Part shown: one piece after another, positions 1 to 10,393 of the stretch | Numbering within the stretch: position 1 is the stretch's first letter | Layout: each line of letters starts with the position of its first letter | Source of the DNA: Cyanobacteria bacterium P01_B01_bin.77 | GTDB taxonomy: Bacteria; Cyanobacteriota; Cyanobacteriia; Phormidesmidales; Phormidesmidaceae | Direction of reading: 5' to 3' | Length of the DNA stretch: 12,120 bases | Assembly: GCA_039028535.1 (NCBI GenBank) | Contig: JBCCHX010000116.1 | Span: 1 to 12,120 of the forward strand | The notes under the pieces: generated by a model | What the model saw: the letters and a program-made list of their open reading frames with translations, nothing else | What the model was told of the DNA's origin: nothing | Databases searched by the model: none | Program-made: the position numbers and the translations under genes

Positions 1-45
1 ATGCTTATAGTTTTCTTGAGGCAATTAATGGTTTAGGCAAGAACC

Positions 46-1938
46 TTGAAGACGAAGATTTATTCTAATGATATCAATCAAATGATAAACTTCAAAGCAC
101 TAGAAATAAGATCTAATAACAACTATTCTTTCGTTGGCATAGAAAAAAAGCAAGGTAAAACTTATTTTTTTATACCTAAGGGTTTTTCATTTATAGATTA
201 TCAATTTCTGAGTAACTATGATGAAAAACGAGATCTATTTTTCAATTTTTATAAAATAATCAAAGAATTTAAATATATTTGTGAGGAGAAAGGATACCTA
301 GAGAAAATTGCTAAAGATCGAGATGGAACTATTATTAAAAACCTTGGTTCTAAAATAGAAATCAATGTAGAGGGCAATGAAAATATATTTTATTCGAAAC
401 TCGATCTAATTGGGGATTTTTTAGATGCTTATGATGAGCTAAGAATATTAGCACTAAAATATAGATTAGGAAAAAAGCAAAAATTTGATGTCGGTCAAAT
501 TCACAAATACTTACACCAAGCCATATATCTACCTAACAACGCTGCCTATGTTGATGAGATGTTAATCCCGAGACAAGCAATACAATTTGAAGCTACTGAT
601 ATCGTTTCAATGTATTGCTATATCTTTGTAGAAATAAAACAGCAACTAAGGGAAAGTGTTGCTTTAGAAATACAATCATTGTCAGAAAAATTTAGACAAA
701 AATATCTACGAAGTCAGGACAGCATCTTTATTGAAAGCACTTATGATGAAGTCTTAAAAAGCCTTAAAGAGTCATTAGAAATAATAGATAAAAATACGTC
801 TATAAAAGATAATGATTATTGGAAATACTATGAGGCAATAGAGCTTTTCCTATATGGAGATTTGACAGAATTCGAAGATGGACAGATTTGGGGAATTAGT
901 AATTTCCACAGCGTCTGGGAATCAGTATGTTTAACTTACTTGGTTAAAAGTCATAACGCTCAATCACTATTATTTGTTGACACTCGATATATTAAATCTC
1001 AAGTGCTGATAGATGCTGGAATTTCTGATAAAGCCTTGAATGCTAATAAAGCTATATTTAAGGTTAATTCCTCTTCTTTGATTCCTGATGCAGTCTTATT
1101 AATTTCAATCGATAAACAGCTTGAAGAATGTAACTCTGATCAGCTTTATTTTATATCTAGTAAAGATTGGAATGACTATGGATATAAAACGTTCAGCTCT
1201 GGCTTTAGAATTGGATACTCAGGTCAGACAGGAGGTGAGCATACTTTTGAAAGGCTAAAACTATTTTATCAGTATGAATATGGAACTCTTACAATAAACA
1301 AACCACTAAGCAACGAGTTTCATTCTTTTTGGGAAATAGAATCAGATGATATTATAGACTCTAAATATTTACACAAGATGTACTTTTTCAATCACTTATT
1401 CTACTTGGCTCTTAGAAAGGGAATAACTGTTTGGAATGAATTTCTGAATGATATTCTTCAACCATTAAGTGTAAGCTTCAATTTGCGACATAACTCATCA
1501 AAAGGAAATGTAATTACACACTCTCTCCTTAGAGAGTATTGTGTAGTAGTTCGTGGAGAATCTAATTCGCGTCCAAAGTCAGAGTTGCTCAAGGATAACT
1601 TTGAGCATTTCATGGAAAAAGCAAAAGACATATATAAAGGTTTTTTTGAGGTAATTGATGTCAAGTATCTAACTGAGGAATGGTTCCTTGATAAAAAGAA
1701 TATTGAGGATATCAAAAATCGTAGTGTACGTAAGCAGTTTGTATATGAGTACTTACTACAAAAGTATTTAGAGAGTGATAGAGATAAATCTAATAGAGTG
1801 ATCCAAAGCAGTTTCTGGCTACCTAAAACTCCAGTTGCTGGCAATAGCTTTTCAGAGCCAGGTGCAGAATTTATGAATGGATGTATCCATCTGAGGAATA
1901 TTGATTTTATGAAAATAGCTCAGGCTTACTTAGAATAG
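46..1938 (+). CDS. Putative PD-(D/E)xK restriction-endonuclease-like protein (McrC/LlaJI-type subunit suspected; family assignment tentative)
   Basis: Uninterrupted 630-codon ORF with TTG at 46; the first in-frame ATG is at 82. Nuclease-like motifs are LIPD348AVLL (D at nt 1087-1089) and FFE535-V-I-D538-V-K540-Y (nt 1648-1668), followed by RKQFVYEY. This resembles the PD...(D/E)xK-Y...Q..Y pattern of McrC-type nucleases. D528 (AKDIY) is an alternative first acidic residue much closer to D538. The ORF is far more AT-rich than the rest of the window. No homology search was possible. Confidence 0.5.
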   Translation: MKTKIYSNDINQMINFKALEIRSNNNYSFVGIEKKQGKTYFFIPKGFSFIDYQFLSNYDEKRDLFFNFYKIIKEFKYICEEKGYLEKIAKDRDGTIIKNLGSKIEINVEGNENIFYSKLDLIGDFLDAYDELRILALKYRLGKKQKFDVGQIHKYLHQAIYLPNNAAYVDEMLIPRQAIQFEATDIVSMYCYIFVEIKQQLRESVALEIQSLSEKFRQKYLRSQDSIFIESTYDEVLKSLKESLEIIDKNTSIKDNDYWKYYEAIELFLYGDLTEFEDGQIWGISNFHSVWESVCLTYLVKSHNAQSLLFVDTRYIKSQVLIDAGISDKALNANKAIFKVNSSSLIPDAVLLISIDKQLEECNSDQLYFISSKDWNDYGYKTFSSGFRIGYSGQTGGEHTFERLKLFYQYEYGTLTINKPLSNEFHSFWEIESDDIIDSKYLHKMYFFNHLFYLALRKGITVWNEFLNDILQPLSVSFNLRHNSSKGNVITHSLLREYCVVVRGESNSRPKSELLKDNFEHFMEKAKDIYKGFFEVIDVKYLTEEWFLDKKNIEDIKNRSVRKQFVYEYLLQKYLESDRDKSNRVIQSSFWLPKTPVAGNSFSEPGAEFMNGCIHLRNIDFMKIAQAYLE

Positions 1939-2063
1939 TGGCTTCTGTAAGCTAGAGCCTTATTACATGCCCTGTATTTATATGTCTATTTAGCTTGGAA
2001 CGTATTGCATAAGCCATACTATTGAGCAATGGCCCTACAGGCTATTGAAAGAATATCTAAACT

Positions 2064-2092
2064 AGCCCTTGTGATTGCACAAGGGCTTTTTA
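2064..2092 (+). terminator. Rho-independent terminator downstream of the AT-rich ORF
   Basis: Perfect 10-bp stem AGCCCTTGTG (2064-2073) / CACAAGGGCT (2078-2087) with loop ATTG, followed by TTTT at 2088-2091. On the opposite strand no comparable T-run follows the stem, so it is oriented for the + strand. Confidence 0.75.
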
Positions 2093-2180
2093 TAAGGCTT
2101 AAAAATCATCAAGACGCCTTGCTGAATCTGGGTTAGGCAGGTGATAACAGGGGGAGATGTTCTTTCATGCTCCCTAAACC

Positions 2181-2606
2181 ATGTCCGATCCTTTAACTGC
2201 AGGTACGATCGCAACCCTGATATTCACAACCGCTGTCGGTAAATTGACCGAAGCGTTGACAGAGGATGCACGAAAGCAGCTAACTCAGAAATTACAGTCT
2301 TTGAAAGAGCTGATCGGCTCCAAGTTTCAAGGCAAGGCTAAAGCTGCATTGGCCAGGGCTGACCGGGGAGATGAAACGGATAAGGATACAGTCACCAAAT
2401 ATTTGGGTATGGCAATGGCTGAAGATCCTGCCTTTGCCCAACAGGTGAGAGCCTTAGCCAACGATATTGAGCAGGTTATCAAGATCGACCAAGTCCAGGG
2501 GCAAAATGTACAGAACGTGTTTGGTGGTGAAGCCAATCAGGTAAACAACCCTCAAGGCCCGGTCATCATGGGCGGTAGTGGCAACACAATTAACATCAAT
2601 ACCTGA
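2181..2606 (+). CDS. Small helical protein with a hydrophobic N-terminal helix and a duplicated G/N/Q-rich C-terminal motif (candidate NLR-associated effector/adaptor)
   Basis: 141-aa ORF starting at ATG 2181. The N-terminus DPLTAGTIATLIFTTAVGKL is a roughly 17-residue apolar stretch. Residues about 20-100 are charged and amphipathic (helix-like). The C-terminal 40 residues are Q/N/G-rich, with two aligned copies NVFGGEANQVN (2514-2546) and VIMGGSGNTIN (2562-2594). Composition matches the downstream NB-ARC gene. It ends at TGA 2604-2606, in frame with the next ORF. Confidence 0.6.
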   Translation: MSDPLTAGTIATLIFTTAVGKLTEALTEDARKQLTQKLQSLKELIGSKFQGKAKAALARADRGDETDKDTVTKYLGMAMAEDPAFAQQVRALANDIEQVIKIDQVQGQNVQNVFGGEANQVNNPQGPVIMGGSGNTININT

Positions 2607-2720
2607 CCAGAGTCGTCGAGTACAGGCTCGACAAGGTCAACCCTGCCCTACAGCAATCCATATCCCAAAACGCTGAATCCAGGGGCACCGTTTCAGGCAC
2701 CACCTCTGCCTCGGCACTAT

Positions 2721-5700
2721 GTGCAGCGGCCTGAGCATTTCGAGGCAGTTAAGGCCAGGCTACTGGATGAGAGCACACCTGGCACCTTAGTGATCAGTGC
2801 TATCTATGGCATGGGGGGTATTGGCAAATCGGTTCTGGCTGCAGCTCTGGTCCAGAATGACGAGATTCAACAACGTTTCCCGGATGGGGTACTGTGGGTG
2901 ACCCTGGGTCAGCAGCCAGACATGCTCTCGATGGTGAACCTGTGGATTCGAGAGTTGGGAGACTATGACTATAATCCCACTACTCTACAGGCGGCATCAT
3001 TACACCTGCGAACGTTGCTAGCCGATAGGAAAGCACTACTGGTTATTGATGATGTGTGGCATCCAGAACATGTAGAGCCCTTTCGCATCGCAGGGGCTGG
3101 GTGCCGTGTGCTGGTGACGACTCGGCAAACCAAGATTGTTGGAGCAACCCGCTACGACCTAGATTTGATGACTCAGCAGCAGTCATTGGAGCTTCTCACC
3201 CGATGCTTACCAACTCCATTATCTGAGGCAGAAAAATCATCTGCTGAGACCTTCGCTAAAGAAGTAGGCTATTTGCCCCTGGCTTTAGAATTAGCTGCGG
3301 CCCAGATTGAGGATGGAGTGACCTGGGACGAGCTGCTAGAGGCCTTTCAATCCGAAATGGCGGATCCCGAAGCGCTGGATATTGATAGTGATGTGGCGTC
3401 CTTAAGCGATGAAACCATTCGGAAACGTCGCAGTTTAGTAGCTTCTTTCAAACTCACACTTAAGCTACTTTCCCCGAAACAATTGGAGCAATTTGCCTGG
3501 TTCGGCATTGTTCCTGAGGATGTCTCTCTAACTCAACAGATGGCGGCCACCTTATGGGGAGTGAAGCCCATAAAGGCAGGCAAGTTGCTGCGAGGGTTCA
3601 AAAATCGGGCGCTGCTGTTACCCCAGGCTCAACGAACTGGTGAGAAACCGACCTATCGCATTCATGACTTGGTGCATGATTTTGCTAAAAATTTGCTAAC
3701 GAGTGAGCAGTATTTAGGGGATTTGTCAGGATTAGGCCTCCCTGTTGAAACAGCCCACTCTCAATTTCTTGAGCGATATCAGGATCAAACAAAAGATGGC
3801 CTATGGCATACCGTTCCAGCAGATGGGTACATCCACAGTCACTTAGTTTGGCATTTTGAGCAATCTGGTCAGCCAGGGTTGATACATCAACTGCTAAAGG
3901 AATCAACATCAGACGGACGAAATGGTTGGTATGAAATTTGCGAACAGTTGGGACAGACAGCCAATTTCGTCACCGATACTGCTCGGGCATGGCAAGCCGC
4001 TGGGAGACTCTATGAACAGAATGTGACTGAGTCGATTGCACTGCAGTGTAGATATGCTCTGATTACAACATCTCTCAATAGCCTGGTTCAAAATCTTCCT
4101 CCTACATTAACTGCAGCACTTGTACAAAAGGGATTATGGCAACCAGCTCAAGGACTAGCCTATGTACGGCAAAGTCCGTATCAGTTTATTAGAGCTGAGG
4201 GTCTTAAAACATTAGTGCCTTATTTACCAGGGGCGTTAATGAAAGAGGCATTAGTAATAGCGCGTTCGATTGAAGGTGAGACTTATCGAGCCTATGCTCT
4301 GTGTGGGGTTGCCGAATATGTGCCCGAGATATTGAAGGAAGCATTAGTGATGGCACGCTCGATTGAAGATGAGACTTATCGGGCTAGAGTTCTGAGTTTA
4401 TTAGCTCCCTATCTACCGGAAGTGTTAGAGGAGGCGTTGTTATTAACGCACTCAATTAAAGATGAGATGGATCGGGCTAGTGTTCTAAGTAGCTTAATCC
4501 CTCATTTACCAGGATCATTGATGCCGGACGCATTGGCAATAGTATCTTCCATTCAGCATGAGTTGAGTCGGGCTAATGCGCTAAGTTGGGTTGCCCCATA
4601 TTTATCAGAATTTTTGATAAGGGATGCATTATCGATAGTTCGCTCGATTCAGCATAAGTCTGAACAGGCTTATGCTCTGAGTTTATTAGCTCCATATTTG
4701 CCAGAGATAGCTAGCGAAGCCTTGAGTATGACACCCTTAATCCAACCTGGATATCTACAGAGTGTTGCTCTAAGTTCATTAGCTCCATATTTGCCAGATT
4801 CACTGACAAAAGAAGCATTAGCAGTAGCGCGCTCGATTCAGCATGAGCGTCCTCGGATCGAAGCATTGCGTTCATTAGCTCCCTATTTGCCGGGCGTGTT
4901 GGAAGAAGCATTGGCAATAGCGCGCTCGATTCCAGATGAGCATTCTCGAGCGGATGCTCTAATGAAATTTGTTCCAGATGTGCCAGAGGTATTGGAGGAA
5001 GTGTTATCAGTAGCGTGCTTGATTGAAGAGGAATCTGAACGGGCCAATATCCTAATTGAAGTAGCTCCATATTTGCCACAAGTGGTGAGAGAGGCGTGGA
5101 TGGTAGCTTGCTCGATTCAGAATGCGCCTGAACGAATCGAAGCCTTGGAAAAATTAGCTGAATATGTGCCAGAACCATTGATGAAAGAGATCTTAGTATT
5201 AGCCAGGTCGATTCAGGATAAGCTTTTCCAAGCTGGTGTATTGATTGAGCTAGTAGAGTATTTGCCGGAAGTAATAAGTGAGGCATTCACAGTAGCACGC
5301 TCAATTCAGGATAATTATTCACGTGCTAAAGCTCTAAGTTGGGTAGCGCAGTATGTGCCAGAAGGGATACATGAAGCCTTGGCAGCAACGCGCTTAATCC
5401 AAAGTGAAAAGTTACGTAATCGTGCTTTAAGCGAGTTAGTGATGTACTTACCAGAAGTAGTAGGTGAGGCCTTAGCGATAGCGCGCTCGATTCAGGACAG
5501 ACTTCATAGGGAAAGCGCTATGAGTTGGTTAATCAAGTACATACCAGCCAAGAGTAGTGAAGCGTTGGAAATAGCGCGTTCGATTCAGGATGAATATTAT
5601 CGGGCCAAGGCCTTAAGTTGGGTAGCCGAGTACATGCCAGAGGTAAGGACAGAGGCTTTGGAAGTAGCCCGCTCGATTCAGAAGAAGTATTTTCGAGCCA

Positions 5701-6296
5701 ATGTTCTGAATAGCATGGCTAAATACATGCCAGAAGTAAGAAGTGAAGCATTGGTGGCAGTACGCGCTATTGAATATAAGAGTCTCCGCATCAAGGCCCT
5801 GAGTGCATTAGCCGAGTATATGCCTGAATTAACAAGTGAGGCCCTGGAGGCAGTATTTTCCATGCAGAGTGGGTATGACCAGGCTGAGGCAATAGTTGAT
5901 TTAGCTCCATATTTGCCGGAATCATTGCTCCCTAAGGCTATAGAGATAACTCGTTCAATTCAGGGTGAATGTTACCAGGCTGAGGCAATAAGAGGGTTAG
6001 CTCCATATTTGCCGGAATTATTGCTACCCAAAATCATAGAAATGGCTCATTCGATTCAGGATGAGTACTATCGGGCCAAAGCTCTGAGTGGATTGGTGCA
6101 CATGCTCAAAACAATTGAAACAGATTTTGATGCTTGGCAAAACCTTGTTCACACCTTGGCGTATCAAGATCGCCAATTCTTCCTCACCAATATTCCCAAA
6201 CTCGCCCCAGCAATCATTTCCCTATCCGGCGGAGGCACAAAGGCTTTAGAATTAGTCGTTGAGGCAATGCAAGACGTTTGTCATCAATGGCCATGA
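2721..6296 (+). CDS. NB-ARC (APAF-1/CED-4/R-protein type) STAND NTPase with a C-terminal array of 21 HEAT/ARM-like helical repeats (bacterial NLR-like protein)
   Basis: NB-ARC motifs present: Walker A GMGGIGKS (nt 2808-2831), Walker B LLVIDDVW (DD at 3048-3053), RVLVTTR, GYLPLALE (GLPL motif, about 3267-3290) and RIHDLVHD (MHD-type, from 3660). A helical linker region follows (YIHSHLVWHFEQSG...), then 21 repeats of consensus ALxxARSIQDExxRAxALSxLAPYLPExLxE, and a unique C-terminal cap ending in QWP. The first canonical start is GTG 2721, only 29 residues before the P-loop. The frame is open upstream back to TGA 2604-2606, so the true N-terminus is uncertain. Confidence 0.9.
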   Translation: MQRPEHFEAVKARLLDESTPGTLVISAIYGMGGIGKSVLAAALVQNDEIQQRFPDGVLWVTLGQQPDMLSMVNLWIRELGDYDYNPTTLQAASLHLRTLLADRKALLVIDDVWHPEHVEPFRIAGAGCRVLVTTRQTKIVGATRYDLDLMTQQQSLELLTRCLPTPLSEAEKSSAETFAKEVGYLPLALELAAAQIEDGVTWDELLEAFQSEMADPEALDIDSDVASLSDETIRKRRSLVASFKLTLKLLSPKQLEQFAWFGIVPEDVSLTQQMAATLWGVKPIKAGKLLRGFKNRALLLPQAQRTGEKPTYRIHDLVHDFAKNLLTSEQYLGDLSGLGLPVETAHSQFLERYQDQTKDGLWHTVPADGYIHSHLVWHFEQSGQPGLIHQLLKESTSDGRNGWYEICEQLGQTANFVTDTARAWQAAGRLYEQNVTESIALQCRYALITTSLNSLVQNLPPTLTAALVQKGLWQPAQGLAYVRQSPYQFIRAEGLKTLVPYLPGALMKEALVIARSIEGETYRAYALCGVAEYVPEILKEALVMARSIEDETYRARVLSLLAPYLPEVLEEALLLTHSIKDEMDRASVLSSLIPHLPGSLMPDALAIVSSIQHELSRANALSWVAPYLSEFLIRDALSIVRSIQHKSEQAYALSLLAPYLPEIASEALSMTPLIQPGYLQSVALSSLAPYLPDSLTKEALAVARSIQHERPRIEALRSLAPYLPGVLEEALAIARSIPDEHSRADALMKFVPDVPEVLEEVLSVACLIEEESERANILIEVAPYLPQVVREAWMVACSIQNAPERIEALEKLAEYVPEPLMKEILVLARSIQDKLFQAGVLIELVEYLPEVISEAFTVARSIQDNYSRAKALSWVAQYVPEGIHEALAATRLIQSEKLRNRALSELVMYLPEVVGEALAIARSIQDRLHRESAMSWLIKYIPAKSSEALEIARSIQDEYYRAKALSWVAEYMPEVRTEALEVARSIQKKYFRANVLNSMAKYMPEVRSEALVAVRAIEYKSLRIKALSALAEYMPELTSEALEAVFSMQSGYDQAEAIVDLAPYLPESLLPKAIEITRSIQGECYQAEAIRGLAPYLPELLLPKIIEMAHSIQDEYYRAKALSGLVHMLKTIETDFDAWQNLVHTLAYQDRQFFLTNIPKLAPAIISLSGGGTKALELVVEAMQDVCHQWP
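4158..6110 (+). repeat. In-frame tandem coding repeats, period 93 or 96 bp, about 21 units (the sensor-repeat array of the NLR)
   Basis: Recurrent DNA blocks include GCGCGCTCGATTCAG (for example near 4828, 4918, 5478 and, with substitutions, 5571 and 5658) and TTAGCTCCATATTTGCC(A/G)GA. The adjacent units at about 5879 and 5976 share CAGGCTGAGGCAATA...TTAGCTCCATATTTGCCGGAA. The units translate to 31-32-aa repeats. Confidence 0.9.
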
Positions 6297-6503: not shown

Positions 6504-7913
6504 ATGGTTACTACTCTTGCCCAAATCGACGTATGGCGGCAAACATCCAGAGAAAATTCAAAGCTGGAATTCAAGGAAGCAAAGAGAAGCTTTGACAAAA
6601 ATAAGCTCTACCGTTATTGCGTAGCTATTGCCAACGAAGGCGGTGGACACCTTTTACTAGGCATTACAGATTCCCGTCCCCGCACTGTCGTTGGCAGTGC
6701 GGCATTTCCTGACACTGATAGCATTACCGAAAAGCTATTTACAGTTTTGCGCTTTCGAGTGGATGTGGAAGTTGTCAATCACCCCGATGGCAGAGTTGTA
6801 GTTTTCCATATCCCATCTCGCCCCACAGGTACTGCATATAGTTACGACGGAGCCTACCTCATGCGCTCTGGTGAAAACCTGGTACCTATGACCGAGGACC
6901 AGCTCCGCAGAATCTTTGCTGAGGGGCAACCCGACTGGCTTGGTGGGATATCAAGAGCTAATTGCACAGATGAAGACATCGTGCGTCTACTAGATACCCA
7001 AAGCTACTACGATCTTCAAGATCGCACCTATCCGAGTACTCGTACAGAAGTTTTACGCAAGCTAGAGCTAGAGCACCTGATAATCGCCACCACTGGTGGT
7101 TGGAACATAACCCGTATGGGAGCGTTGCTCTTTGCCAAACGCATTGAGGATTTTTCAGATCTGCAACCTAAAGCACCACGTTTCATCGTCTACGAAAACA
7201 ATAACAAGCTCAACACTCGCATGGACATCTTTGGAGGGAAAGGCTATGCCGTTGGGTTTACGGGCTTAGTAGATTTCATCATGGCCCAGGCTCCTCAAAG
7301 TGAAGTCCTCAGCGGAGCACTACGGGAATCAGTCAAGATGTTTCCTGAGGAAGCAGTACGTGAATTAGTAGCAAATGCCCTCATCCATCAAGATTTTGCC
7401 CAGGACGGTCCCTCAGTCAGGATTGAACTCTATTCAGATCGGCTAGAAATTAGTAACCTGGGTCTTCCGCCCATTGATGTGGAACGATTCATCGATGAGG
7501 ACAAGTCCCGTAATGAGCGCCTGGCCGATCTGATGCGTCGTCTCAGAATTTGTGAGCGTAAAGGCAGTGGCTTCGACCGAGTGGTTAATGCGGCTGAAGA
7601 CTATCAGTTACCGGCTCCGGATATCCGTATCGGCTCATTACATACCTCCGTCGTGTTATTTGCCCATAAGGAATTCAAAGAGATGGACCGTGACGAGCGT
7701 ATTCGGGCCACTTATCAGCACTGCTGCCTGAGGTATGTAATGAATGAAAAAATGACCAATAAGTCCCTCAGAAAACGTTTTCAGCTACCCGACAAGAAAA
7801 CGGAACCCGTATCCCGAGCAATCCGTGAAGCCCTCGACTCACAGCTGATCAAACCGGCTGATCCATCAGTGACATCTACTCGCTATCGCAGCTATATCCC
7901 CCAATGGGCATGA
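6504..7913 (+). CDS. AlbA_2 (Schlafen-like, 'divergent AAA') + HATPase_c_4 + C-terminal winged-helix protein; putative nucleic-acid-binding regulator / ATP-binding protein
   Basis: 469-aa ORF with AAGGA 13 nt upstream of ATG 6504. The N-terminus LEFKEA...YCVAIANEGGGHLLLGITD...VVG matches the AlbA_2 signature as I recall it. The central ELVANALIHQDF...IELYSDRLEISNLG...RNERLADLMRRLRICERKGSGFDRV matches the HATPase_c_4 (RecG-like C-terminal) pattern. The C-terminal MTNKSLRKRF...VSRAIREALDSQLIK...YIPQWA looks like a wHTH. Confidence 0.8.
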   Translation: MVTTLAQIDVWRQTSRENSKLEFKEAKRSFDKNKLYRYCVAIANEGGGHLLLGITDSRPRTVVGSAAFPDTDSITEKLFTVLRFRVDVEVVNHPDGRVVVFHIPSRPTGTAYSYDGAYLMRSGENLVPMTEDQLRRIFAEGQPDWLGGISRANCTDEDIVRLLDTQSYYDLQDRTYPSTRTEVLRKLELEHLIIATTGGWNITRMGALLFAKRIEDFSDLQPKAPRFIVYENNNKLNTRMDIFGGKGYAVGFTGLVDFIMAQAPQSEVLSGALRESVKMFPEEAVRELVANALIHQDFAQDGPSVRIELYSDRLEISNLGLPPIDVERFIDEDKSRNERLADLMRRLRICERKGSGFDRVVNAAEDYQLPAPDIRIGSLHTSVVLFAHKEFKEMDRDERIRATYQHCCLRYVMNEKMTNKSLRKRFQLPDKKTEPVSRAIREALDSQLIKPADPSVTSTRYRSYIPQWA

Positions 7914-9374: not shown

Positions 9375-10393
9375 GGTTTGCTGTTGAAGTCCAGCCTTGA
9401 TACTCAGCAAGGGTTTCATACTATTGAGATAGGCTTAAGTGCACTGAAAAGTAGCTAAAATGCTCAAAACCCTTGCACCTATTGCGGGTCATGCACCGAC
9501 ACTCTTCCCCTAGCCAGCTATCGTTCCAAGACTTTTATTTGCCGTGCCGAAACCTAGGTCACATTGACCAGTTAATCGAAGCAGGCGCAACGCTTGCAGC
9601 GCTGAATTCACAGGAGTATAAGACTCTGTTGGTAATTCATGAGGTGTATCGCCAACAACAGCATATGTATCAACATAAGCAGCGACGGATTGATGACCGC
9701 CTTGTGAGTCTTTCACAGCCCCATGTGCGCCCCATTGTTCGCGGTAAAGCTGGGACTCCAGTGGAATTTGGAGCCAAATTCGCCATTAGTTGTGTGGCCG
9801 GGTATGTGTTCCTCGACCATCTCAGTTGGGATAACTTCAATGAATCTGAGGACTTGATACCTCAGATAGAACGGTTTCGAACCCGCACCGGCCACTATCC
9901 TGCCTCCGTGCATGCCGACCAGATTTATCGGACACGCGAGAACTTGAGATGGTGCAAACGGCATAGCATCCGTCTGAGTGGTCCGCCCTTAGGCCGACCG
10001 TCGCTCGATGAAACCCAACAAGCCCTCCTTCGACAACGAGCCCGAGACGATGAGAGCGTTCGTGTTGCCGTCGAAGATAAGTTTGGTCGGGCCAAACGAC
10101 GATTTGGCCTCGGACGGGTGATGGCCAAACTTGCCCAAACCGTCGAAACCATGATTGCCATCACCTGTTTAGTGATCAACTTGGAGAAACGGCTACGCCG
10201 TTTTATTGGCTTGGTGTTGATGGTATTGATTCGGTTACTACGGAGCTATCGGGCAACTATACGTCCCTTTGTGGCAAGAGTAAGCGATAACTGGTTTAAA
10301 AACGTCGACTATCAGCAAGGCTATACTGACCACGCCTGCGCTGCCGGATAACCCCTGAGATTTTTACTGAGTTTTTCAGCAAGCCCTACTTAT
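9367..10393 (+). mobile_element. IS5-family insertion sequence, internally deleted (non-autonomous) derivative, 1027 bp
   Basis: Terminal inverted repeats are ATAAGTAGGGTTTGCTG (9367-9383) and CAGCAAGCCCTACTTAT (10377-10393), matching at 16 of 17 positions. They enclose a transposase ORF that lacks its middle part. No clear target-site duplication is visible, and the two flanks are unrelated (integrase on one side, IS1 fragment on the other). Confidence 0.7.
9491..10351 (+). CDS. IS5-family DDE transposase, internally deleted and probably inactive
   Basis: The likely native start is ATG 9491 (MHRHSSPSQLSFQDFYLP, the usual N-terminus of this transposase type); the ORF track opens at TTG 9473. 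After FYLP the sequence jumps to the C-terminal two-thirds: SQPHVRPIVRGKAGTPVEFGAK...NESEDL...HADQIYRTRENLRWCKRHSIRLSGPPLGRP...RVAVEDKFGRAKRRFGLGRVMAKL...NLEK. The DUF772-like region and the first catalytic Asp region appear to be missing. The product is 286 aa, against roughly 450-500 aa expected for full-length relatives (from memory). Confidence 0.65.
   Translation: MHRHSSPSQLSFQDFYLPCRNLGHIDQLIEAGATLAALNSQEYKTLLVIHEVYRQQQHMYQHKQRRIDDRLVSLSQPHVRPIVRGKAGTPVEFGAKFAISCVAGYVFLDHLSWDNFNESEDLIPQIERFRTRTGHYPASVHADQIYRTRENLRWCKRHSIRLSGPPLGRPSLDETQQALLRQRARDDESVRVAVEDKFGRAKRRFGLGRVMAKLAQTVETMIAITCLVINLEKRLRRFIGLVLMVLIRLLRSYRATIRPFVARVSDNWFKNVDYQQGYTDHACAAG

What the first reader, a model, noticed from the sequence alone, without database searches (positions are those of the whole stretch)
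2604..2723. The small ORF and the NLR form one reading frame interrupted by a single TGA
Seen directly in the sequence. Coordinates 2181 and 2721 are both in phase 0. The only stop between them is TGA at 2604-2606, and the 38 codons 2607-2720 are all sense codons with no ATG, GTG or TTG. These codons translate to PESSSTGSTRSTLPYSNPYPKTLNPGAPFQAPPLPRHY, which flows into VQRPEHFEAVKARLL. That is the kind of proline-rich linker and pre-P-loop segment usually found inside NB-ARC proteins, so conserved-looking coding sequence extends upstream of the annotated GTG start. The stop is UGA followed by C, generally regarded as a weak termination context. A 6-bp hairpin GTCGAG-N6-CTCGAC (2615-2632) begins 8 nt after the stop. 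No Shine-Dalgarno-like sequence precedes GTG 2721. There are three readings. (a) A leaky stop sets a ratio between abundant free small protein and a rare 1371-residue effector-NLR fusion. (b) It is a recent nonsense mutation or gene fission of an all-in-one NLR. (c) It is a sequencing or assembly error.
Basis: seen in the sequence. Interest (0 to 1): 0.8.

Follow-up and report, generated by a model that had tools for sequence, protein, structure and literature searches.

The report
Conserved leaky stop joins effector to NLR
The stop codon between a small death-effector-like gene and a large immune-sensor (NLR) gene is a conserved signal found across filamentous cyanobacteria. It most likely lets a few ribosomes read through, so one gene would give both the free effector and an effector-sensor fusion; this appears to be undescribed.

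Summary
The 38 codons between contain no stop and no start.

It is not a mutation or an error. In about 30 distinct loci from at least four cyanobacterial orders, including Anabaena PCC 7120 plasmid gamma, the homologous small ORF ends in TGA (TAG once). A C always follows, and the same frame continues into an NB-ARC (once a CHAT) domain.

- **Frames:** frame 0 is open in 28/28 loci and both other frames are closed in 28/28. Spacer length varies but always by whole codons.
- **RNA structure:** a hairpin starts exactly 8 nt after the stop, with 18 stem variants and compensatory changes. Synonymous change collapses across it.
- **Coding constraint:** the codons after it, upstream of any start codon, are under purifying selection (dN/dS 0.06).
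- **Start codon:** GTG 2721 is ATC, ATT or GTA in relatives.
- **Natural control:** relatives with the classic two-gene amyloid-signalling layout have an out-of-frame NLR with its own ATG and its own motif copy.

Best reading: programmed UGA readthrough gives abundant Bell-like effector plus rare effector-NLR fusion. This is inferred and has not been shown experimentally.

The parts
2064..2095 (+). Intrinsic terminator (10-bp stem plus T-tract) that ends the upstream low-GC gene. It marks the small ORF as the start of a new transcription unit.
2181..2495 (+). Small ORF, residues 1-105: a helical domain. It has MSDP, then a hydrophobic N-terminal helix, with an acidic residue at position 3 and five predicted helices. 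This fits the published description of the Bell domain.
   Evidence: description of Bell
2496..2603 (+). Small ORF, residues 106-141: a G/N/Q-rich C-terminal motif, QGQNVQNVFGGEANQVNNPQGPVIMGGSGNTININT. It is predicted to be disordered. The same motif sits at the N-terminus of a separate NLR in L023.
   Evidence: BASS composition
2604..2607 (+). UGA stop plus C at +4. Relatives have TGA, or TAG in L026, and the following base is always C.
2601..2651 (+). The whole conserved RNA element around and after the stop. It is the hit of covariance model R1, which was built without the window clade.
   Evidence: 23.7 bits, E=4.7e-5
2615..2632 (+). Inner hairpin GUCGAG-UACAGG-CUCGAC. It starts 8 nt after the stop.
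   Evidence: 18 stem haplotypes; compensatory changes in 4 of 6 pairs
2604..2639 (+). Outer helix. UGACC (2604-2608, including the stop codon) pairs with GGUCA (2635-2639) and encloses the hairpin.
   Evidence: 96% of cells paired; the C-G / U-A pair covaries
2623..2645 (+). Candidate pseudoknot stem. The hairpin loop CAGG (2623-2626) pairs with CCUG (2642-2645). The Nostoc-type loci have GGGA with UCCC at the same alignment columns.
   Evidence: 88-93% paired; changes on both sides at 3 of 4 pairs, mostly one split between clades, so this stays a candidate
2607..2720 (+). 38 sense codons with no canonical start. Codons 1-13 overlap the RNA element, where synonymous change is suppressed. Codons 14-38 are a Pro-rich linker under purifying selection.
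2721..2723 (+). GTG, the annotated NLR start. It is a Val codon in the conserved [HN][YF][VI]xRP motif. Relatives have ATC, ATT or GTA here, and no Shine-Dalgarno sequence precedes it.
2733..3359 (+). NB-ARC domain. The P-loop GMGGIGKS lies at 2808-2831.
   Evidence: PF00931, E=3.9e-26
4236..6140 (+). Sensor region: 20 tandem helical repeats of 31-32 residues. The ORF ends at TGA 6294-6296, which is followed by G.

Best explanation
Coordinates 2181-6296 form one translation unit with a programmed, conserved leaky stop.

Most ribosomes terminate at UGA 2604. They release a 141-aa protein made of a Bell-like helical domain and a C-terminal G/N/Q-rich, amyloid-type signalling motif.

A minority decode UGA-C, probably as Trp through near-cognate tRNA-Trp. 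They are helped by the weak UGA-C context and by an RNA hairpin, or possible pseudoknot, placed 8 nt downstream, where it would meet the mRNA entry channel. These ribosomes make a 1371-aa protein in which the same domain and motif are fused through a Pro-rich linker to the NB-ARC and repeat sensor.

The fusion gives the NLR the N-terminal motif that two-gene relatives encode separately. When the NLR oligomerises on activation, its motifs would nucleate the fold that converts and recruits the abundant free short protein, the presumed membrane-targeting executioner. One ORF would therefore supply sensor and effector with identical motifs in a fixed, low sensor-to-effector ratio.

Shown here:
- conservation of the stop, its context and its frame;
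- covariation in the RNA structure;
- coding constraint with no start codon upstream of it;
- how the architecture compares with relatives.

Inferred:
- that readthrough occurs, how efficient it is, and which amino acid is inserted;
- that the motif forms amyloid;
- the cell-death or defence output.
For: 1. **Stand-alone family with a conserved end.** The small ORF belongs to a family of mostly stand-alone proteins of about 130-160 aa. Close homologues (44-89% identity) all end at the same place. The HMM search finds 384 cluster representatives.
2. **Conserved stop and frame.** In 20/21 genome loci, and in further metagenome and plasmid loci, the stop is TGA (TAG in L026) followed by C. The same frame runs on into an NB-ARC P-loop.
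3. **Frame statistics.** Between the stop and the P-loop, frame 0 is open in 28/28 loci and frames +1 and +2 are closed in 28/28. The distance takes about 10 different lengths (45-69 codons), always whole codons.
4. **No conserved start.** Seven of the 20 NB-ARC loci tabulated have no in-frame ATG/GTG/TTG upstream of the NB-ARC domain. GTG 2721 is ATC, ATT or GTA elsewhere. PGAP had to use an ATT start in PCC 7120.
5. **Selection.** Spacer codons have dN/dS 0.056 in the window clade, against 0.08 for NB-ARC. Codons 1-13 after the stop have dS 0.06-0.12 against 0.4-2 in the flanks, with dN/dS of about 0.8 or higher, which indicates a constraint on the RNA.
6. **RNA structure.** 90% of cells are paired, against 12-41% for slid controls. 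Four of six hairpin pairs show compensatory changes. RNAalifold finds the hairpin on its own. There are 18 stem haplotypes at a fixed 8-nt spacing. The covariance model gives E=4.7e-5 in the window and no significant hit in the control loci.
7. **Natural controls.** L037/L038, from the same N-domain family, have the NLR in the +1 frame with its own ATG and its own motif copy. The NLR in L023 begins with its own ATG and motif. The true fusion in L036 has GGC in place of the stop and has lost the hairpin.
8. **Known leaky contexts.** C at +4 and UGA-CUA are known leaky contexts, and 3' structures stimulate readthrough (PMC7026636).
9. **TGA is an ordinary stop here.** It ends the NLR and the next gene in this window.
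Against: - No protein, ribosome-profiling or reporter evidence exists. The efficiency of readthrough is unknown.
- Stimulation of near-cognate readthrough by a 3' hairpin is established for eukaryotic and viral systems, not for bacterial ribosomes. In bacteria, hairpins just after stop codons have instead been proposed to insulate termination and control re-initiation (PMC7518266).
- The window and 13 of 20 tabulated loci do have some in-frame GTG or TTG before the NB-ARC domain that could serve as a private start.
- The outer helix sequesters the stop codon itself. It must be melted when the ribosome arrives, so its role is unexplained.
- Homology of the small domain to Bell was not tested directly. 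Pfam, PDB sequence and Foldseek searches found nothing significant.
- The amyloid nature of the motif is assumed from its composition and architecture.
- Some relatives fuse the same module to TIR, CHAT or GUN4-like domains. The module may therefore be an adaptor rather than the executioner.
Confidence: 0.72

Rival explanations
1. These are two separately translated proteins. The small protein terminates at UGA. The NLR starts by itself at GTG 2721, or at non-canonical codons in other loci. The hairpin is a termination, insulation or re-initiation structure (RTS) or another operon-level regulator.
For: Gene callers and PGAP annotate two genes. Stable structures just after stop codons are common in bacteria and affect re-initiation (PMC7518266). 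GTG 2721 lies only 4 codons before the Pfam NB-ARC start. 13 of 20 tabulated loci have some in-frame GTG or TTG.
Against: This does not explain the universal in-frame arrangement across about 10 spacer lengths. It does not explain purifying selection on codons upstream of every candidate start, or the loci with no usable start. GTG 2721 is not conserved. It also fails to explain why these NLRs lack the motif that out-of-frame two-gene relatives carry.
Confidence: 0.15
2. The conserved RNA element has a different primary role, such as an RNase processing site, a binding site for a protein or small RNA, or a structure that senses temperature or stress. The downstream frame would then be translated by some route other than readthrough.
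For: The outer helix pairs the stop codon itself. The conserved single-stranded A-rich segment and the possible pseudoknot go beyond what a simple readthrough stimulator needs. There is no Rfam match to guide the assignment.
Against: The element is tied to the stop. It has a fixed 8-nt spacing and an invariant +4 C, and it is lost where the stop is replaced by a sense codon (L036). It is absent from two-gene, orphan and fused relatives.
Confidence: 0.07
3. The stop is decoded efficiently by a dedicated factor, either selenocysteine through a SECIS-like hairpin or a suppressor tRNA. The locus would then be, in effect, an all-in-one NLR.
For: UGA followed by a nearby hairpin is the bacterial SECIS layout (established knowledge). 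tRNA-Trp variants that read UGA exist in some bacteria (PMC13092985).
Against: L026 has UAG at the same site. The site lies in a disordered linker rather than in a redox centre. No Rfam SECIS match was found. Hairpin loops differ between clades. TGA ends ordinary genes in the same window. Cyanobacteria are not mentioned in the tRNA survey. Hundreds of stand-alone small proteins have a conserved end.
Confidence: 0.05
4. This is a recent nonsense mutation, a decaying pseudogene, or a sequencing or assembly error.
For: A single in-frame TGA in a metagenome-assembled genome is the usual signature of either. Real one-off stops do occur in relatives: L023 has TAG inside NB-ARC, and L009 has TAA inside the TPR region.
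Against: The independent assembly is identical. The stop is conserved in about 30 loci across orders. Purifying selection acts on both sides (dN/dS 0.04-0.12 in the window clade). The one-off stops in relatives lack the C+4 and hairpin signature.
Confidence: 0.01

Closest known systems
Bell/BASS-NLR amyloid signalling gene pairs of filamentous bacteria (Dyrka et al. 2020, bioRxiv 10.1101/2020.01.06.895854), and the fungal HET-S/NWD2 paradigm
   Same: A small helical-bundle protein of about 140 aa, with a hydrophobic N-terminal helix, an acidic residue at position 2-3 and a C-terminal G/N/Q-rich motif, is encoded immediately upstream of and collinear with an NB-ARC NLR. It occurs in multicellular cyanobacteria. 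Members of the same protein family (L037/L038) form textbook pairs, with the motif repeated at the NLR N-terminus.
   Different: Here the NLR has no motif and no start codon of its own. It is in frame behind a conserved UGA-C and hairpin, so the motif would reach the NLR only by readthrough. The published screen looked for matching motifs in two separate proteins. The paper mentions neither stop codons nor readthrough, so the screen would probably have missed this class.
Programmed stop-codon readthrough signals with a 3' structure: MuLV gag-pol pseudoknot, alphavirus nsP3/nsP4 UGA-C, the extended stem-loops of Firth et al. 2011, the UGA-CUA context, and in bacteria the phage Qbeta A1 protein
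   Same: The stop is leaky (UGA), C is at +4 (UGA CUA in most loci), the spacer is about 8 nt, and a stable covarying stem-loop or possible pseudoknot follows. Synonymous-site conservation covers the signal. Two products share an N-terminus in a set ratio (for the literature; for the data).
   Different: The host is a bacterial chromosome or plasmid gene family, not a virus or a eukaryote. Termination is by RF2, not eRF1. An additional helix pairs the stop codon itself. No experimental readthrough has been measured.
All-in-one NLRs with an N-terminal Bell-like domain
   Same: The readthrough product would have exactly this architecture. True uninterrupted examples exist in the same family: P0154, P0178 and L036/P0033.
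   Different: The stop is conserved, and most product would be the free short protein.
Bacterial SECIS-directed UGA recoding
   Same: UGA is followed at about 10 nt by a hairpin inside the coding frame.
   Different: One locus has a UAG variant. The site is in a linker. There is no Rfam hit, and the loop sequence is not conserved between clades.
Ribosome termination structures (RTS) downstream of bacterial stop codons (PMC7518266)
   Same: A stable hairpin lies immediately 3' of a stop codon in an operon-like context.
   Different: RTS are generic folding biases. They are not sequence families with covariation, a fixed spacing and an in-frame coding continuation.

Membership tests
Programmed stop-codon readthrough (recoding) site | In-frame stop with a long ORF continuing in the same frame, conserved in orthologues as a stop | tested here: met
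   About 30 loci have TGA, or TAG once. Frame 0 is open in 28/28 and the other frames are closed in 28/28.
Programmed stop-codon readthrough (recoding) site | Leaky stop context (UGA, C at +4) | tested here: met
   C at +4 is invariant. Most loci have UGA CUA. For context, see PMC7026636.
Programmed stop-codon readthrough (recoding) site | Conserved 3' RNA structure at about 8 nt, supported by covariation | tested here: met
Programmed stop-codon readthrough (recoding) site | Protein-coding constraint downstream of the stop without an intervening start; synonymous-site suppression over the signal | tested here: met
   dN/dS is 0.056 for the spacer and dS is 0.06 over the hairpin. There is no conserved start.
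Programmed stop-codon readthrough (recoding) site | A readthrough polypeptide is detected and its level depends on the signal | not testable with these tools
   Needs Western blot, mass spectrometry, ribosome profiling or a reporter assay.
Bell/BASS-NLR amyloid signalling | Short helical-bundle effector of about 120-140 aa with a hydrophobic N-terminal helix and an acidic residue at position 2-3 | tested here: met
   141 aa, MSDP followed by LTAGTIATLIFTTAV. The AF2 model has five helices over residues 7-108.
Bell/BASS-NLR amyloid signalling | Sequence homology to the Bell domain profile | not tested
   No Bell profile or reference sequence was on hand. Pfam, NCBIfam, PADLOC, PDB and Foldseek gave nothing significant.
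Bell/BASS-NLR amyloid signalling | The same ~25-aa G/N/Q-rich motif at the effector C-terminus and at the N-terminus of the adjacent, separately encoded NLR | tested here: not met
   The window NLR has no motif and no start of its own. The feature is met in the family relatives L037/L038 and in the NLR of L023.
Bell/BASS-NLR amyloid signalling | The motif forms amyloid or prion-like fibrils and templates its partner | not testable with these tools
   Only composition and predicted disorder are available.
All-in-one Bell-NLR | A single uninterrupted ORF | tested here: not met
   The stop is conserved. True fusions (L036, P0154, P0178) lack both the stop and the hairpin.
Selenoprotein gene (bacterial SECIS) | UGA-specific recoding directed by a SelB-binding hairpin | tested here: not met
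   L026 uses UAG. No Rfam SECIS hit was found. Loops vary between clades. The Sec machinery in these genomes was not examined.
NB-ARC STAND NTPase (NLR) | NB-ARC domain with a P-loop, followed by repeats | tested here: met
   PF00931 with E=3.9e-26, GMGGIGKS at 2808-2831, and 20 repeats of 31-32 aa.

The most novel reading that the evidence does not exclude
The leaky stop may be more than a fixed ratio-setter. It could be the regulated step of the immune pathway. Because UGA-C termination depends on RF2 and on the stability of the RNA fold, the amount of effector-NLR fusion would report the state of the translation apparatus. Examples are phage takeover, RF2 depletion, or stress or temperature acting on the hairpin or pseudoknot.

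A single ORF would then encode a self-templating, prion-like pair of sensor and effector, and the nucleator would be produced conditionally.
Probability: 0.2. Interest if true: 0.93.

Novelty: new variant of a known kind. Interest (0 to 1): 0.85.

Why it matters
- **A rare kind of recoding.** To my knowledge, conserved programmed stop-codon readthrough with a dedicated, covarying 3' RNA structure has hardly been reported for cellular bacterial genes. This would be a family-wide case spanning several cyanobacterial orders.
- **A third layout for NLR amyloid signalling.** It would add a third architecture to the known two-gene and all-in-one layouts. In it, one ORF makes both the effector and the effector-tagged sensor. 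That removes the need for two motif copies to co-evolve, and it fixes a low sensor-to-effector ratio.
- **An annotation problem.** These NLRs are currently given arbitrary internal starts, such as ATT in PCC 7120, or are fused by gene callers that use code 4 (P0045).
- **Directly testable.** The same cassette sits on plasmid gamma of the genetically tractable model Anabaena sp. PCC 7120.

Tried and rejected
- **Small-protein searches.** Pfam, NCBIfam, PADLOC and PHROGs found nothing significant for the small protein. The AlphaFold2 model (pLDDT 71) searched with Foldseek against PDB, and an HMM against PDB sequences, gave only generic four-helix bundles with E>0.2. Bell homology therefore could not be confirmed by fold.
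- **Rfam.** Region 2000-3200 gave no family.
- **Viral contigs.** The Nostoc-type element pattern gave 0 hits.
- **tRNAs.** There are none in the window, so no local suppressor tRNA.
- **Internal signals.** No promoter or terminator lies between the small ORF and the P-loop. An internal terminator or attenuator is rejected because the hairpin has no U-tract.
- **Upstream ORF.** The idea that ORF 46-1938 is the repeat end of another NLR was rejected, because there is no similarity.
- **Deletion between motif copies.** I considered that the window NLR lost its motif through a deletion between two motif copies. This was rejected because the stop sits at the canonical end of the small protein and the arrangement is ancestral to many clades.
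- **Literature.** Nine searches for readthrough combined with NLR, NB-ARC, Bell, BASS or cyanobacteria found no description of this arrangement. Dyrka 2020 and Kaur 2020 do not mention readthrough.
Full report
**1. Observation**

- ATG 2181 opens a 141-codon ORF that ends at TGA 2604-2606.
- The same frame then runs through 38 sense codons to GTG 2721 and on to TGA 6294-6296.
- None of the 38 codons is ATG, GTG or TTG.
- The stop is followed by C.
- GTCGAG-N6-CTCGAC lies at 2615-2632, 8 nt after the stop.

The contig comes from the MAG 'Cyanobacteria bacterium P01_B01_bin.77'. An independent Logan assembly of run SRR22824298 shows the identical stop.

**2. The small protein**

A search with the small ORF plus the linker returned about 30 homologues at 44-89% identity. 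Nearly all are 139-145 aa and end at the same place. A profile search of 1.84 billion representatives found 384 clusters, overwhelmingly of 130-160 aa.

These proteins share several features.
- The start is M-x-[DE]-P followed by a hydrophobic helix.
- AlphaFold2 predicts five helices over residues 7-108, with pLDDT 70-89.
- The C-terminal 30-40 residues are disordered and rich in G, N and Q.

These are the descriptive hallmarks that Dyrka et al. give for the Bell domain and its BASS motifs. Direct homology to Bell could not be tested, because Pfam, PDB and Foldseek gave nothing significant.

**3. The stop is conserved, not accidental**

Loci were fetched from one-genome-per-species contigs, from metagenomes, by exact protein look-up, and from PLSDB.

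In 20 of 21 genome loci, and in the additional loci, the small ORF ends in TGA followed by C. L026 has TAG followed by C. The same frame continues into GxGGxGK[ST] of an NB-ARC domain. In L004 it continues into a CHAT protease domain.

The taxa include Nostoc, Anabaena, Hassallia, Spirirestis, Plectonema, Kastovskya (Coleofasciculales), Aerosakkonema (Aerosakkonematales), Leptolyngbyaceae MAGs and a Chroococcales MAG.

- Between the stop and the P-loop, frame 0 has no stop in 28/28 loci. Frames +1 and +2 have stops in 28/28.
- The distance takes about ten different values (45-69 codons), always whole codons.
- One apparent 'W' fusion (P0045) is really a TGA that a gene caller translated with another genetic code.

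**4. No private start for the NLR**

The candidate in-frame GTG and TTG codons differ from locus to locus, and none is an ATG. Seven of the 20 NB-ARC loci tabulated have no candidate upstream of the NB-ARC domain.

GTG 2721 is GTG only in the two closest relatives. At the homologous position, other loci have ATC, ATT or GTA. In Anabaena PCC 7120 plasmid gamma, PGAP starts the NLR at an ATT codon 22 codons after the TGA.

**5. Selection**

Nei-Gojobori estimates were made within four clades. The table gives the window-clade values.

| Region | Window-clade values |
|---|---|
| Spacer after the RNA element | dN/dS 0.056 (27 synonymous, 6 nonsynonymous) |
| NB-ARC domain | dN/dS 0.08 |
| First 13 codons after the stop | dS 0.06 |

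- For window codons 14-38, all upstream of GTG 2721, window versus L024 shows 8 synonymous and 1 nonsynonymous change. Window versus L025 shows 10 and 1. This stretch is therefore translated in frame 0, although no start codon lies between it and the stop.
- Across the four clades, dS over the first 13 codons after the stop falls to 0.06-0.12, against 0.4-2.0 in the flanks, while dN/dS is about 0.8 or higher. That pattern indicates an overlapping RNA-level constraint.

**6. The RNA element**

In a gap-free alignment of 26 distinct contexts, two helices are seen.
- The hairpin occupies positions +12 to +17 and +24 to +29.
- An outer helix pairs the stop codon (UGAC[C/U]) with [G/A]GU[C/U]A.

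Together they are paired in 90% of cells, against 12-41% when the partners are slid. Four of six hairpin pairs show compensatory double changes.

Further support:
- RNAalifold predicts the hairpin unaided.
- Eighteen different 5-bp stem haplotypes keep the pairing at the fixed 8-nt spacing.
- The hairpin loop can pair with a segment about 10 nt downstream (window CAGG with CCUG; Nostoc type GGGA with UCCC). This pairing covaries between clades. I treat this pseudoknot as a candidate only, because most of the signal comes from one split between clades.
- A covariance model built from 19 elements outside the window's clade hits the window once, at 2601-2651 (23.7 bits, E=4.7e-5; next best E=2.1). 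It also hits the held-out loci at their stops. It finds nothing significant in the control loci.
- Rfam has no matching family.

**7. Natural controls within the same protein family**

- **L037/L038** are classic two-gene BASS pairs. The NLR is in the +1 frame and has its own ATG. Its N-terminus repeats the effector's motif (KGFQVEVKGGTAYIGDIEIHQ against KGWQAKVEGGTAYIGDITIHQ).
- **L023** has an NLR that begins with its own ATG and a copy of the window-type motif. It then continues LNLGAPFQAPPLPRHYVDRPEH, which is homologous to window 2673-2740.
- **L036** (a complete genome) is a true fusion, with GGC in place of the stop and no hairpin.
- **L039** ends in TAA with nothing downstream.
- **One-off in-frame stops** inside relatives' NLRs (L023 TAG, L009 TAA) have no C+4 and no hairpin.

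The NLRs that sit in frame behind UGA-C and the hairpin are therefore the ones that lack a motif and a start of their own.

**8. Mechanism**

The simplest account is programmed readthrough. UGA with C at +4, and specifically UGA-CUA, is a known leaky context. Structures placed 3' of the stop stimulate readthrough in viral and eukaryotic systems (PMC7026636). From general knowledge, UGA-C is also the weakest termination signal in E. coli, and near-cognate tRNA-Trp inserts Trp at UGA.

The short product would be abundant and the fusion rare. By analogy with HET-S/NWD2 and BASS pairs, the fusion's motif would nucleate conversion of the free short protein once the NLR oligomerises.

These last steps are inference. 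Relatives in which the module is fused to TIR, CHAT or GUN4-like domains leave open that it acts as a homotypic adaptor rather than as the executioner.

**9. Rivals**

- **Independent initiation plus an insulating hairpin** (RTS; PMC7518266) is the main rival. It fails to explain the frame, the coding constraint upstream of any start, and the missing motif.
- **Selenocysteine** is unlikely, given the UAG variant, the linker position and the absence of a SECIS match.
- **Pseudogene or sequencing error** is excluded.

**10. Novelty**

Nine full-text searches found no description of readthrough in bacterial NLR, Bell or BASS systems. The two most relevant surveys do not mention it.

The components are known: readthrough signals, and Bell/BASS-NLR signalling. 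What appears to be new is their combination, as a conserved single-ORF way to make both the sensor and the effector.

Noticed in passing
window 1-1938: A 630-aa ORF (46-1938) lies in a segment with GC 0.29-0.33, against 0.43-0.53 for the rest of the window. It has no hit in Pfam, NCBIfam, PADLOC or PHROGs and no similarity to the NLR. It ends at a strong intrinsic terminator (2064-2087). It looks like foreign DNA next to the NLR.
   Followed up: partly
window 4236-6140: The NLR sensor region is 20 tandem copies of a 31-32-residue helical repeat (EAL.iARSIqDe..Ra.AL..LAPYLPE). No Pfam repeat model matches it. Most relatives in other clades use TPR repeats instead.
   Followed up: partly
window 6504-7913: The gene after the NLR encodes a protein with Schlafen AlbA_2 and HATPase_c_4 domains. 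It has weak PADLOC hits to Argonaute-associated SIR2-PNTD proteins and matches PHROG 12156 ('DNA helicase'). This suggests a defence-island setting.
   Followed up: partly
window 9473-10351: A fragment of an IS5-family DDE transposase. It matches only the C-terminal half of the NCBIfam model.
   Followed up: no
L042 (NC_003267.1, Anabaena/Nostoc sp. PCC 7120 plasmid gamma) 4998-9860: The model strain carries the same cassette, but with the other motif type (..GYQTKVETEKGTTNIGGHHTHNYHT TGA CTA CAG CCG CCCGTTGGAGAACGGG..). RefSeq annotates the NLR as starting at an ATT codon 22 codons after the stop.
   Followed up: yes
L023 749-751; L009 7807-7809 (= L028 5307-5309); L005 after 6715: Relatives' NLRs contain one-off in-frame stops or frameshifts: TAG inside NB-ARC, TAA inside the TPR region, and a frameshifted NB-ARC. 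None has the C+4 and hairpin signature. They are probably pseudogenes or assembly errors, and they are a useful contrast to the conserved stop.
   Followed up: partly
L002, L004, L005 (one Leptolyngbyaceae MAG, CBDHHL01): One genome carries at least three paralogous cassettes with near-identical motifs. Two lie in front of NB-ARC proteins and one in front of a CHAT protease. This suggests a shared signalling network or exchange of modules.
   Followed up: no
L011-L021, L030-L032, L040 (last codons of the small ORF): In the Nostoc-type clade the small protein ends in a Pro-rich tail (..PPD, ..SPD, ..PPNS) just before the UGA. C-terminal prolines are known to slow termination in E. coli. The window clade lacks this tail (..ININT).
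   Followed up: no
P0047, P0109, P0129 (family members): The same N-terminal module is fused, without a stop, to a C-terminal region whose sequence looks GUN4-like to the eye (no domain search was run on it). P0129 has a sequence resembling the post-stop peptide (..PPHELKSSGGVPTKKSTP..) at the junction.
   Followed up: no
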